From: a candidate division WOR-3 bacterium
GTDB lineage: Bacteria > Hydrothermota > UBA3072 > B12-G15
Direction: 5' to 3'
NCBI GenBank assembly: GCA_965649055.1
Contig: CBFGJG010000004.1
Span: 1-64,000 of the forward strand
Length of the DNA stretch: 64,000 bases
Shown: positions 19,703 to 24,372 of the stretch, one piece after another
Position numbering within the stretch: position 1 is the first letter of the stretch
Layout of the letters: every line of letters begins with the position of its first letter
The notes under the pieces: model-generated
Told to the model about the DNA's origin: nothing
Seen by the model: the letters and a program-made list of their open reading frames with translations, nothing else
Database searches by the model: none
Translations under genes and position numbers: made by a program

Positions 19703-19731
19703 TTGACAAAATTTTAAAAATCATTTATAAT
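19703..19731 (+). promoter_or_regulatory. Consensus sigma70 promoter pointing into the CRISPR leader
   Basis: TTGACA-N17-TATAAT with an A-rich upstream tract. Confidence 0.8.
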
Positions 19732-19757
19732 AAAAATACAAAATAAAAATTAAATTC

Positions 19758-19768
19758 GCTCTTTGAAA
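19758..19768 (+). promoter_or_regulatory. boxA-like Nus antitermination signal
   Basis: GCTCTTTGAAA about 20 nt after the predicted TSS; matches the GYTCTTT(A/G)AMA consensus. Confidence 0.65.
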
Positions 19769-19853
19769 TTAGAATAGTTTTTTATACCGGATTAAGGGAT
19801 AATTTATTACAAATTACTAACTTTGTAATAATTTTCCTGAACGACGCCTGAAG

Positions 19854-19994
19854 TTTTCCACATTTTTTCCACAACGAGATAACAAGTTATTGATAATAAT
19901 TGAGTTATAGCGAAAATTAAAAAAAATTTCAAACTCATCGTCGTTGTGGTTCAAAATGAATGAGTTATGAAAAATGTGGATAAAATGTGGATAA
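19854..19994. promoter_or_regulatory. Two oppositely oriented pairs of DnaA-box-like 9-mers around an IHF-like site
   Basis: TTTTCCACA at 19854 and 19865; TGTGGATAA at 19975 and 19986; WATCAANNNNTTR on minus at 19883-19895. Confidence 0.5.
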
Positions 19995-20059
19995 TTTTTA
20001 GGTCTGTGTCGGAAATGCCCTTATAAGTTATTGGTGTTAAATAACTTTCAAGGGGTGCT

Positions 20060-20172
20060 GTAGCAATCGAACTCCCGTAAGATCGGGATTGCAACCGCAT
20101 CGATGAAATCGCTCAACTTCATAGCGTTCCTCCTTTGTAGCAATCGAACTCCCGTAAGATCGGGCTCGAAAT
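20060..20172 (+). CRISPR. Orphan mini CRISPR array: 2 repeats (36 nt) and 1 spacer (41 nt)
   Basis: GTAGCAATCGAACTCCCGTAAGATCGGGATTGCAAC at 20060-20095; second copy at 20137-20172 with a degenerate 3' end; TCCCG/CGGGA hairpin; ATTGCAAC end; AT-rich leader upstream. Confidence 0.8.
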
Positions 20173-20175
20173 AAT

Positions 20176-20320
20176 GGGGACTAGGGATTAGGCATTAGGG
20201 ACTGGTATATAATAAGTTTATATTTCGATAAAGAATAGATGTGAGAATATAAATAAAATGCTTACAAGACTTTATAAGTCTATTAAATAACTAATCCCCA
20301 GTCACGAGTCCCCAGTCCCT
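20176..20320. repeat. Inverted tracts of tandem heptamers (RGGGAYT-like)
   Basis: GGGGACT-AGGGATT-AGGCATT-AGGGACT at 20176-20203 and AATCCCC-AGTCACG-AGTCCCC-AGTCCCT at 20293-20320. Confidence 0.8.
20216..20290 (+). pseudogene. C-terminal remnant of a four-helix-bundle (23S rRNA IVP-like) gene
   Basis: Translates to VYISIKNRCENINKMLTRLYKSIK*, resembling the family's final helix (E.I.KML..L.KSL). Confidence 0.5.
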
Positions 20321-20383
20321 AAAACACTCCCGTAATATCGGGCTCGAAATAATGGGGATTAGAGACTTGTGGAATATGGAATA

Positions 20384-20551
20384 ATGTTAGTAGATGATTT
20401 GGATGTTTTTAAATTATCACATGGAATTTTATTAAAGGTTTATGAGCTAACGAGAGAATTTCAAAAAGATAAGATATTTAATTTAACAATGCAATTAAGA
20501 CGGATATAAAGTTCTATATCTATAAATTAAATTGAGGGTGGGCAAAAAAAG
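20384..20551 (+). pseudogene. N-terminal remnant of a four-helix-bundle (23S rRNA IVP / TIGR02436-like) gene
   Basis: MLVDDLDVFKLSHGILLKVYELTREFQKDKIFNLTMQLRRI*SSISIN*IEG; in-frame stops at 20507 and 20528. Confidence 0.75.
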
Positions 20552-21498: not shown

Positions 21499-24372
21499 AT
21501 GAAAAGATTATTTCCGATATTTTTTATAAGCCTTTTCATATATCCACAAAGTTTAAAGATACTATATGAACCATTAGAGGGTGTTCCACTTTACCCGGCA
21601 AAAACCACACCTTTAATGAAAGAGATTAATGTCTTAGAAACAAGGCAAAGCCCTGTTAATTTTTATAGAACATCTTCTCATCATCCTGATAAAATTGGAC
21701 ATACAGATTTTAAAGAAATATACGGAAGACCTGTTGTAAATTACCCATTAGAGTTTTTAGATTCAAAGGTATCATACGATACACTCTCATACTGGAATAC
21801 TGCTTCAACAAATTTCTTTTACTGGAATCAGCCGGATAACTATGGTGATATAAATTATTCTGTCCGCTTCACACCCATTAACAATGGAACATTGAAAAGT
21901 GCGATATTCTGGTTCTATAATCTTGTAGGTTCTGGTAATATAAGGATTCATGTATGGAATGATAATTGGGGTTATCCTGGAACAGAACTCGGGTATGTTG
22001 ATTTTCCAACATCAGGTATAGCCGGCTGGCCTTATGGAACTATAATAGATCTTTCATCTTTAGGGATAAATGTTACAGCAGGGAACGATTTTTATGTTGG
22101 ATATTCTTTATTATCAGGTGTCAGCACCTTAGGACTCGTTTATGATACATTTGGTCTTGCACCTGAAAGATGCTATGATTATTGGCCTACCTTTAGTATG
22201 TGGGAAACATCCGACTGGATTCATGATAATATTACATGGCTTATTGAGGCAGTTGTTGAGGTTGGTGCTGGTGGACAACCTAATCTCACATATTACACAC
22301 CAACGGGATGGGATGGACCGATAGTTCCATCATCTGTATCAGGGACACACACAACAGGTCCAAATCTTCAGGGCGGTGCTACGACATATATAGACTGGGC
22401 TATTATAAATAATGGAAGTGATACTGCACTGGCAACATTCTATATTTATCTTTATTCAGATGGAATACCAATAGGAGGATGGTATACTGATTCACTTCCA
22501 CCTAACTATTATACTTATGTTGAAGATTGGACATATACATTCTCATCAGGGAATCATACACTTGGAATATTTGCAGATTCAACAAATACGATTTCTGAAA
22601 GCAATGAGACAGACAATAAATATTCGCAGGTCTTCTCATGGGGTGGAGGTGGTGGAGGAGGAATTTCAGGTGTGAAATATATTATTATCACAAGTCCGAG
22701 TTTTGTTTCATACTTTGAACCACTTGCATGGTGGAAGACCAAAAAAGGTGTCCCTGCAAAGATTGTAACTACTGATTACATATATGCAAATTATTCGGGA
22801 ACTGATAACCAACAGAAGATAAGAAATTATATATCTGCACAGGCTGATTCAGGTGTATTGTATATACTCCTTGGTGGTCAGATGGACTGGGAACATGGTG
22901 AAGGTATAGTTCCAAGAAGGGATGTTTGGTGCATGCAAAGTGGAGGTGGAGGATATCCAGATGAAGATACTATCCCAACAGATATGTATTATTCAAATCT
23001 TGATGGGAACTGGAATGGTGACGGGGATAATGTTTATGGTGAGATGGGTGATAATGTAGACCTTTATTCAGATATTGCAATAGGAAGGGCACCTGTAAAA
23101 AATACATCACAGGTTACAAATTTTGTGAATAAGGTCTTAACTTATGAAAAGAATCCACCAACAAGTTATATTAAGAAAATACTTCTTCCATCTGTGAAGC
23201 TTTTTGATTATTATTATCATGGAGTAAATTATTACGGATATGTTGTGAATAATGCAATCTCAAATATAACACCAGCAGGCTGGCAGGATTCAAAACTTGA
23301 AGATAACAATAATTCGCAGTCATGGAATTTAAGACAGGCTATAAAAGATTCACTTAATAATGGTTTCCATTTCTGCCATTTTGCAGCACACGGTGATGAA
23401 TACGGACATTACTATCTCTTAGGAAACACTGTATACAATTATTCAGATGCACAAACAATGAACAATGGAACAAAATATTCAATCATAAATGCAATTTCCT
23501 GTTTTACAGGTGCTGTTGATGAGGCAGGTTCATCTGCAAGTTATGATTGTATCGCAGAACACTATGTGAACAGGGTTTCAAATGGGGCTGTTGCAACTAT
23601 TATGAATACAAGATATGGACTTGCTTATCCACCGAGTATGGGACCATCAGAGGTTCTTGATACAACATTCTATCGCTTGATATTTCTTGAAGGGTTTTAT
23701 CACCTTGGTGAAGCACATATGGAGGCAAGGGATAGATGGGCAAGCTCTGCACAATCAGATCAGGGATTCAGATGGTGTGTTTATGAGTTAACACTTTTTG
23801 GTGACCCTGAAATGCCTATATGGACAGATACACCACAGAATATGAATGTATCTATAAATCTTGATTCACTCATTGTTGGACAGAACAATAATCTTATAGT
23901 AACAGTCCAGACTGCGAAGGCACCTGTGCAGAATGCCCTTGTCTGTCTTGCAACAAAAAACTATGATGTATATGATACATTATTAACAAATTCAAGTGGC
24001 CAGGCAAATTTCACTGTGAATCCTTCAGCTGAAGAGACAATATTTATAACTGTAACAAAACATAATTACATACCTTATGAGACATACAGACTTTCAAAAA
24101 TCTCCACAGGTATCTCTGATGATACGGGAAAACTAAACTTCTATCTTTCTTTAAATTCCGGAAAAGGAATAAATGTGAATTATGATATTCCAGAAAAAGG
24201 CGAAGTGAAAATATCTGTTTTAGATATTGTTGGAAGGAAGAAAGAGATTTACAGAAATATTGTAGAAAAAGGAAAACATAATATTGTATATAAACCAGAA
24301 AAATTCGGTGTTTATTTCATTATGCTTGAATATAAGGAAAAATCTATTCTTAAGAAGATTGTTTATTTTTAA
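21499..24372 (+). CDS. C25-family (gingipain-like) cysteine peptidase with N-terminal beta-sandwich and CARDB domains and a T9SS-like CTD
   Basis: Signal peptide; CARDB (ISESNETDNK); YIIIT, TDMYYSNLDG, IGRAPV, catalytic HG and SC, LFGDPEM; C-terminal LDIVGR...GVYFI. Confidence 0.88.
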   Translation: MKRLFPIFFISLFIYPQSLKILYEPLEGVPLYPAKTTPLMKEINVLETRQSPVNFYRTSSHHPDKIGHTDFKEIYGRPVVNYPLEFLDSKVSYDTLSYWNTASTNFFYWNQPDNYGDINYSVRFTPINNGTLKSAIFWFYNLVGSGNIRIHVWNDNWGYPGTELGYVDFPTSGIAGWPYGTIIDLSSLGINVTAGNDFYVGYSLLSGVSTLGLVYDTFGLAPERCYDYWPTFSMWETSDWIHDNITWLIEAVVEVGAGGQPNLTYYTPTGWDGPIVPSSVSGTHTTGPNLQGGATTYIDWAIINNGSDTALATFYIYLYSDGIPIGGWYTDSLPPNYYTYVEDWTYTFSSGNHTLGIFADSTNTISESNETDNKYSQVFSWGGGGGGGISGVKYIIITSPSFVSYFEPLAWWKTKKGVPAKIVTTDYIYANYSGTDNQQKIRNYISAQADSGVLYILLGGQMDWEHGEGIVPRRDVWCMQSGGGGYPDEDTIPTDMYYSNLDGNWNGDGDNVYGEMGDNVDLYSDIAIGRAPVKNTSQVTNFVNKVLTYEKNPPTSYIKKILLPSVKLFDYYYHGVNYYGYVVNNAISNITPAGWQDSKLEDNNNSQSWNLRQAIKDSLNNGFHFCHFAAHGDEYGHYYLLGNTVYNYSDAQTMNNGTKYSIINAISCFTGAVDEAGSSASYDCIAEHYVNRVSNGAVATIMNTRYGLAYPPSMGPSEVLDTTFYRLIFLEGFYHLGEAHMEARDRWASSAQSDQGFRWCVYELTLFGDPEMPIWTDTPQNMNVSINLDSLIVGQNNNLIVTVQTAKAPVQNALVCLATKNYDVYDTLLTNSSGQANFTVNPSAEETIFITVTKHNYIPYETYRLSKISTGISDDTGKLNFYLSLNSGKGINVNYDIPEKGEVKISVLDIVGRKKEIYRNIVEKGKHNIVYKPEKFGVYFIMLEYKEKSILKKIVYF

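What the first reader, a model, noticed from the sequence alone, without database searches (positions are those of the whole stretch)
20060..20172. Orphan single-spacer CRISPR whose guide is antisense to a ribosome-binding site and start codon
Seen: the reverse complement of the 41-nt spacer (20096-20136) is AAAGGAGG-AACGCT-ATG AAG TTG AGC GAT TTC ATC GAT GCG, a textbook SD, 6-nt spacing and MKLSDFIDA. The leader and the degenerate last repeat fix transcription on plus, so the crRNA would pair with the translation-initiation region of an mRNA. Established: a 36-nt hairpin repeat ending ATTG(A/C)AAC with a long spacer fits class 1 systems, including RNA-targeting type III, and solitary mini-arrays can be regulatory or anti-CRISPR RNAs. 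The spacer is 46% GC with GC-ending codons unlike this host, which favours a foreign target, and I saw no match in the window. Inference: either a remnant anti-phage guide or a CRISPR-derived translational silencer acting in trans.
Basis: partly seen in the sequence, partly recalled or inferred. Interest (0 to 1): 0.75.

Follow-up and report, generated by a model that had tools for sequence, protein, structure and literature searches.

The report
Ordinary type III anti-virus guide
This one-guide CRISPR array is most likely an outlying copy of the cell's RNA-targeting (type III) immune memory, and its guide covers a gene start because type III systems preferentially capture the beginnings of a virus's early genes; three other guides in the same genome hit similar gene starts.

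Summary
The sequence is as described, but it is not an orphan and a silencer is unlikely. The same 36-nt repeat and a 300-nt leader (88-97% identical) occur at the end of a complete type III-B (cmr) operon and of a cas1-cas2 locus elsewhere in the genome. No host target: best genome match equals shuffled spacers. The decisive clue: 3 of the other 21 type III spacers, in a different repeat family (type III-A), are also antisense to gene starts reading MK[LI]S[DE]F[IL] (chance about 1e-9 against host DNA), with codons varying at silent positions. This is a recurrent target in a variable foreign element, matching the published type III habit of taking spacers from the start of the first early phage gene and of having one-spacer arrays (PMC13575424). 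The anti-Shine-Dalgarno part lies at the 3' end that Cmr guides usually lose. No protospacer was found, so the virus is inferred. Earlier notes covered this leader and promoter; a word search found no note of the hotspot.

The parts
19703..19731 (+). Consensus sigma-70 promoter (-35/17/-10, 12 of 12) upstream of the leader; likely drives the array transcript (inferred)
   Evidence: same -35/-10 in the C25 copy
19757..20059 (+). CRISPR leader, shared with the arrays behind the cmr operon (C68, 88% over 305 nt) and behind cas1-cas2 (C25, 97% over the proximal 155 nt)
20060..20095 (+). Repeat 1, 36 nt, hairpin, identical to the repeats on C25 and C78; its last 8 nt would form the crRNA 5' handle (inferred from known Cas6 processing)
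20096..20136 (+). Spacer, 41 nt, antisense to SD + ATG + MKLSDFIDA; anti-start codon at 20120-20122, anti-SD at 20129-20136 (guide nt 34-41)
20137..20172 (+). Degenerate terminal repeat (28 nt identical, then diverged); the C78 array ends with the same kind of degenerate repeat
20175..20314 (.). Heptamer-repeat inverted arms (20175-20198 / 20291-20314) inside a 33-nt duplication (20148-20180 / 20326-20358) that includes the end of the terminal repeat
20384..20550 (+). Broken gene resembling 23S rRNA intervening-sequence (four-helix-bundle) proteins; in-frame stops; end approximate
   Evidence: PF05635 E 3.3e-6, below the family cut-off

Best explanation
An isolated (satellite) CRISPR array of the genome's type III-B system, holding one ordinary anti-virus spacer. 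Steps: (1) transcription from the promoter through the leader [inferred; motif shown]; (2) Cas6 made elsewhere cuts the repeat, leaving the 8-nt handle [inferred from known biology; which of the genome's two detected Cas6 does it is unknown]; (3) the guide is trimmed at its 3' end and loaded in trans into Cmr (perhaps also Csm, as the two handles differ at few positions) [inferred]; (4) it pairs with the 5' end of a foreign mRNA whose product starts MK[LI]S[DE]F, triggering RNA cleavage and Cas10 signalling [inferred; Cas10 GGDD motif is visible]. The guide covers an RBS and start codon because type III systems take spacers preferentially just downstream of strong early phage promoters and at ORF starts, and this particular start is a recurrent target: 4 of 22 type III spacers in the genome hit it in diverged variants [shown]. 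The array is short either because spacers were lost by repeat-to-repeat deletion or because it rarely expands.
For: Identical repeat and leader directly behind cmr1-cas10-cmr3-cmr4-cmr5-cmr6 and behind cas1-cas2-ring-nuclease-like gene. Three spacers (1st, 2nd, 9th) of the 37-nt-repeat array on C37 read MKISEFISDARERK, SD-MKISEFLDHG and MKLSEFISDASRK on the antisense strand; BLOSUM scores 28-32 against the finding's peptide, next best 18; 4 in 40,000 host windows reach 28, P(3 or more of 21) about 1e-9. The motif occurs in the genome only in these four spacers and the SD-led pattern in 1 of 272 phylum genomes, both times as a spacer here. A second shared target: last C78 spacer and 10th C37 spacer match at 32/35 nt, so both repeat families saw the same invader family. 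19 of 22 spacers are purine-rich on the antisense strand, as expected for mRNA-targeting guides. No self target. PMC13575424: many natural type III-A arrays have one spacer; hotspot about 10-50 bp into the first early ORF; 25 of 125 early-gene spacers hit one gene.
Against: No protospacer found: 0 hits in viral contigs for spacer-derived exact or tight patterns; the 23 and 17 loci from loose patterns match at most 26/41; phage and plasmid records give only chance-level pieces. So 'virus' and 'early gene' are inferred. At DNA level the finding's spacer and its closest sister match only 18/28, within the shuffled range; the kinship is at peptide level. One C78 spacer carries an SD+ATG in the sense orientation, so strand bias is not absolute. 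The published hotspot is for type III-A of S. thermophilus and starts inside the ORF, whereas this spacer also covers the RBS. Expression is untested.
Confidence: 0.85

Rival explanations
1. CRISPR-derived regulatory RNA (crlRNA-like) that silences translation of a host or cas mRNA in trans by covering its RBS.
For: Architecture of one intact plus one degraded repeat resembles regulatory mini-arrays (bioRxiv 10.1101/2023.03.03.530964, section read). The assembly is 93.8% complete, so a target could be missing. Short partial matches cannot be fully excluded.
Against: Best host match 26/41 (31/41 with G:U) versus 25-26 (29-31) for 12 shuffles; best of 3,690 candidate host starts 25/41 with 5/12 in the guide's 5' end. 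Longest match to five cas regions 8-10 nt, shuffled mean 9-10; 5' seed 4-6 nt. Full leader present, whereas regulatory mini-arrays tend to lack it; that paper judged type III mini-arrays degraded repeats with no targets. Anti-SD mostly outside mature Cmr guide lengths. Sister spacers sit in a normal long array.
Confidence: 0.04
2. The one-spacer form is a decayed remnant or an assembly collapse of a longer or strain-variable array; the guide may not be made at all.
For: The other three copies of this repeat all lie at contig ends, so these arrays break the assembly. Directly downstream are a duplication and a broken gene. In one laid run a contig carries leader, repeat and a different spacer (weak: see report).
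Against: The array lies inside an 82-kb contig with unique flanks; promoter, leader and first repeat are intact. This rival concerns array length and activity, not the origin of the spacer, so it is compatible with the best explanation.
Confidence: 0.2
3. A mobile-element-borne decoy or counter-defence RNA (Racr or viral mini-array) left in the chromosome.
For: A mobile-looking heptamer-hairpin/IVP relic lies just downstream.
Against: Flanks are housekeeping-type genes, not a prophage; the repeat was not found in viral contigs; it carries the host's full leader; Racrs are solitary repeats without a full spacer (recalled).
Confidence: 0.02

Closest known systems
Short type III-A arrays of Streptococcus thermophilus and the early-promoter/ORF-start acquisition hotspot (PMC13575424; abstract, sections 17, 21, 22, first part of 23 and passages read)
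   Same: One-spacer arrays are common; spacers are antisense to mRNA; a single gene start takes about a fifth of spacers (here 4 of 22).
   Different: Here the repeat is tied to type III-B, the hotspot is shared by two repeat families, two of the four guides include the RBS, and the target element is unidentified.
Isolated CRISPR arrays acting in trans with cas genes elsewhere (general concept recalled; the Shmakov 2020 paper was not held; PMC13142298 seen as search listing only)
   Same: Array far from cas genes with a repeat identical to a cas-linked array.
   Different: Nothing essential; activity in trans not tested here.
Regulatory mini-arrays / crlRNAs (CreA, scaRNA, cas8-promoter guides; bioRxiv 10.1101/2023.03.03.530964, passages and section 22 read)
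   Same: Intact repeat, spacer-like stretch, degraded second repeat.
   Different: Those lie in cas loci, usually lack the acquisition leader, and partly match a host promoter; this one has the full leader, is far from cas genes and has no host match.

Membership tests
Type III-B-associated CRISPR array | Repeat identical to that of an array adjoining a cmr operon | tested here: met
   Leader and first 8 nt of the repeat follow cmr6 at the end of C68; full repeat after the same leader on C25 and in the C78 array. The C68 repeat is cut by the contig end.
Type III-B-associated CRISPR array | Leader upstream and degenerate repeat at the trailer end | tested here: met
Type III-B-associated CRISPR array | Complete effector and adaptation genes in the genome | tested here: met
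   Cmr1-6 over NCBIfam cut-offs, Cas1, Cas2; two Cas6 elsewhere, none seen in the cmr contig, which is cut just upstream of cmr1
Type III-B-associated CRISPR array | Spacer matches a foreign transcript | tested here: inconclusive
   No protospacer in the collections searched; indirect support from recurrent variant spacers
Type III-B-associated CRISPR array | crRNA expressed, processed and loaded | not testable with these tools
   No RNA run holding the stretch was listed
Regulatory mini-array (crlRNA) | Intact plus degraded repeat around one spacer | tested here: met
Regulatory mini-array (crlRNA) | Seed match of 10 nt or more to a host or cas promoter / 5' region | tested here: not met
   5' seed exact match 4-6 nt in five cas regions; genome-wide best equals shuffles; assembly 93.8% complete
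Regulatory mini-array (crlRNA) | Located within or beside a cas locus and lacking the acquisition leader | tested here: not met
   No cas hit on this contig; full leader
Regulatory mini-array (crlRNA) | Position and spacer conserved in relatives | tested here: inconclusive
   No repeat or proximal-leader match in 40 relatives and no array upstream of the neighbouring gene in 3 of 3 relatives retrieved, but none is of the same genus

The most novel reading that the evidence does not exclude
The four guides do not hit one gene in virus variants but a shared N-terminal tag (capsid-targeting-like) at the start of several different genes of one large phage, so that a single mismatch-tolerant type III guide recognises several transcripts and is hard to escape; two type III systems would have converged on it. 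A T4-like viral contig with five genes starting MKLS[DE]xL-like exists, though it is not the target. A guide that also reaches the RBS could additionally block translation of an early anti-defence gene.
Probability: 0.1. Interest if true: 0.55.

Novelty: new member of a known kind. Interest (0 to 1): 0.24.

Why it matters
As a silencer candidate it falls away. What remains is a neat natural example, in an uncultured lineage, of the recently shown type III bias for the start of an early viral gene, seen across two systems (III-B- and III-A-type repeats) and over several acquisition events. It predicts that a co-occurring virus has a strongly and early expressed gene starting MK[LI]S[DE]F, a good candidate for a regulator or anti-defence gene, and gives four probes to find that virus.

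Tried and rejected
Rfam: only a sub-threshold CRISPR-DR36 hit (14.5 bits vs 38), not used. Self-targeting: none. Viral contigs, 8 scans: 0 hits for three spacer-derived patterns, the repeat, and two sister-spacer patterns; loose patterns gave 23 and 17 loci, none a protospacer. The single metagenome hit of a 20-mer lies inside a thioredoxin-like ORF (family judged by eye) and is chance. Repeat not found in genome contigs (the own genome may be left out). Phage and plasmid BLAST: best E 0.6 and 0.1, none covering 80%. Protein search with the 14-residue peptide was not possible (below the minimum length), so the target protein family stays open. Viral record G272 carries the N-terminal motif several times but matches no spacer beyond short AT-rich words. 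No RNA holder listed. In the 4 of 6 listed runs that were laid, no listed contig covers this spacer, including the closest run; holes in Logan contigs prove nothing. GC content as proof of foreign origin: rejected. DnaA-box-like words in the leader suggested an origin at first; the same words are in all three leader copies, so they are a leader feature.

Full report
Observation. The repeat folds into a hairpin (z -2.56). The spacer's reverse complement reads SD, 6 nt, ATG, MKLSDFIDA. Such a strict SD+ATG occurs in 0.23% of random 41-nt host windows on one strand, a loose one in 2.8%; by arithmetic 2.5-4% of windows in a gene-dense genome would cover a real start. So it is almost surely a copy of a real gene start. 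A 12/12 sigma-70 motif at 19703-19731 on plus, the leader and the degenerate end fix the direction.

Not an orphan. The window is the start of contig C4 of a 2.08-Mb, 85-contig assembly (93.8% complete). The identical repeat occurs on C25 (two copies at the contig end) and C78 (four full copies plus a degenerate last one like ours). The leader recurs on C68 (88% over 305 nt) and C25 (97% over 155 nt). On C68 it follows cmr1, cas10/cmr2, cmr3, cmr4, cmr5, cmr6, all over their NCBIfam cut-offs; on C25 it follows cas1, cas2 and a Cas_APE2256 (ring-nuclease-like) gene. The genome also has a type III-A operon (csm1-5, cas6, CARF-HEPN, cas1, cas2) on C63 with a second, 37-nt repeat (arrays on C63, C37, C5) and a third, 30-nt repeat on C23. 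No cas1, RAMP or cas6 hit is on C4. The array is therefore isolated but cognate to type III-B.

No host target. With spacers masked, the best ungapped match is 26/41 (31/41 counting G:U); 12 shuffles give 25-26 (29-31). For the first 31 nt: 22 versus 20-22. Registered on ATG, the best of 3,690 candidate host starts is 25/41 with only 5/12 at the guide's 5' end. In five cas regions the longest exact match is 8-10 nt (shuffled mean 9-10) and the 5' seed 4-6 nt. A missing 6% of the genome and very short regulatory matches cannot be excluded.

The spacer belongs to a hotspot. I extracted 22 spacers of the two type III repeat families (6 and 16, two of them bounded by repeats cut at contig ends). 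Three on C37 (1st, 2nd, 9th from the leader) are antisense to MKISEFISDARERK, SD-MKISEFLDHG and MKLSEFISDASRK, and align with ours on the ATG. Scored against the finding's peptide they give 32, 30 and 28; the other 18 give 18 or less; 4 of 40,000 random host windows reach 28, giving about 1e-9 for three of 21. Caveats: I saw the likeness before testing, the null is host rather than viral DNA, and spacers from one invader are not independent (which is the point). At DNA level our spacer and its closest sister share 18/28, inside the shuffled range: the differences are largely at silent positions, as expected for separate captures from diverged coding sequences rather than copies of one spacer. 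The motif occurs in the genome's six frames only in these four spacers, in 1 of 26 class genomes, and with an SD in 1 of 272 phylum genomes, always here. A second site is shared across the two repeat families (C78 last and C37 10th spacer, 32/35 nt). 19 of 22 spacers are purine-rich on the antisense strand, a weak sign of mRNA-directed orientation; one C78 spacer has an SD+ATG in sense, against a strict rule. The two spacers read from the 30-nt-repeat array lack the motif.

Why a gene start. PMC13575424 (abstract, sections 17, 21, 22, first part of 23 and passages; supplements not read) reports for S. thermophilus type III-A that arrays average four spacers and many have one, that spacers are antisense to early phage genes, that the hotspot starts about 10-50 bp into the first ORF behind the early promoter with some spacers in the promoter region, and that 25 of 125 early-gene spacers hit that one gene. 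Our 4 of 22 fits. Extending this to type III-B and to this host is inference. The anti-SD is guide nt 34-41; mature P. furiosus Cmr crRNAs are mainly 39 and 45 nt with an 8-nt handle (PMC5965381, passages), i.e. 31 and 37 guide nt, which would keep none or half of it. Guide lengths in this host are unknown.

Target search. No protospacer: viral contigs gave 0 hits for tight patterns; loose patterns gave 23 and 17 loci with at most 26/41 to our spacer and 27/40 to a sister, in unrelated proteins, which also shows that MK[LI]S[DE]F is a fairly common phage N-terminus. One record (L061/L080, 15% complete, with a head-tail adaptor gene) has five genes with this kind of start, recalling T4 capsid-targeting sequences (PMC9026906 and PMC5694885, passages); it matches no spacer convincingly. 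It is the only locus of those fetched with more than one such start, so the 'shared tag' reading is a minority one. Searches for type III spacers with capsid targeting sequence gave 0 papers, and with RBS/translation initiation 2 listings not evidently on this point (listings only).

Strains. Six runs were listed, as hot-spring metagenomes; four were laid. One 234-nt contig runs from the leader through repeat 1 into a different spacer and the next repeat (gaps all within 20102-20132). It has only 28 nt beyond the spacer, under the tool's 31-nt rule, and may come from any of the three leader copies, so it is a weak hint of turnover. Another run shows about twelvefold depth on the repeat relative to the flank, consistent with longer arrays. 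No homologous repeat was seen in 40 relatives (matches only to the AT-rich promoter end), and no array lies upstream of the neighbouring tRNA-synthetase-like gene (named by eye) in the 3 of 5 relatives where it was retrieved; none shares the genus.

Comparison with regulatory mini-arrays. This array shares only the outline.

Verdict. A new member of a known kind: an isolated type III-B array with an immunity spacer from a gene-start hotspot (0.85). Silencer 0.04. Whether the one-spacer length is real and expressed is open (0.2 for remnant or collapse, compatible with the main reading). Interest 0.24.

Noticed in passing
G000 C37 20331-20448 and 20947-20986 (L038): Three spacers of the type III-A-type array hit the same MK[LI]S[DE]F gene start as the finding's spacer, at the newest (1st, 2nd) and an older (9th) position, suggesting repeated capture against changing variants.
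   Followed up: yes
G000 C78 309-349 and C37 21024-21060: Spacers in two different repeat families match one site at 32/35 nt (antisense GYSxxGEWTRG); no viral hit found.
   Followed up: partly
G000 C78 80-118: A spacer with a strong SD + ATG (MKFRN) in the sense orientation, opposite to the usual type III strand; the next spacer also has an SD-like run near its end.
   Followed up: no
window 20148-20550: 33-nt duplication of the terminal repeat's end around heptamer-repeat inverted arms, followed by a broken 23S-IVP-like four-helix-bundle gene; a shorter homologous tail follows the C78 array.
   Followed up: partly
window 19851-19997: Inverted pairs of DnaA-box-like words in the leader, conserved in all three leader copies.
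   Followed up: partly
G000 C23 about 22070-22310: The 30-nt-repeat (type I-like) array is interrupted by two copies of a palindromic REP-like element that overwrite repeat ends.
   Followed up: no
L061 7021-13813 (viral record G272): AT-rich T4-like phage fragment with a cluster of unrelated-looking genes sharing an MKLS[DE]xL...E N-terminus, like capsid-targeting propeptides; most have no PHROG family.
   Followed up: partly
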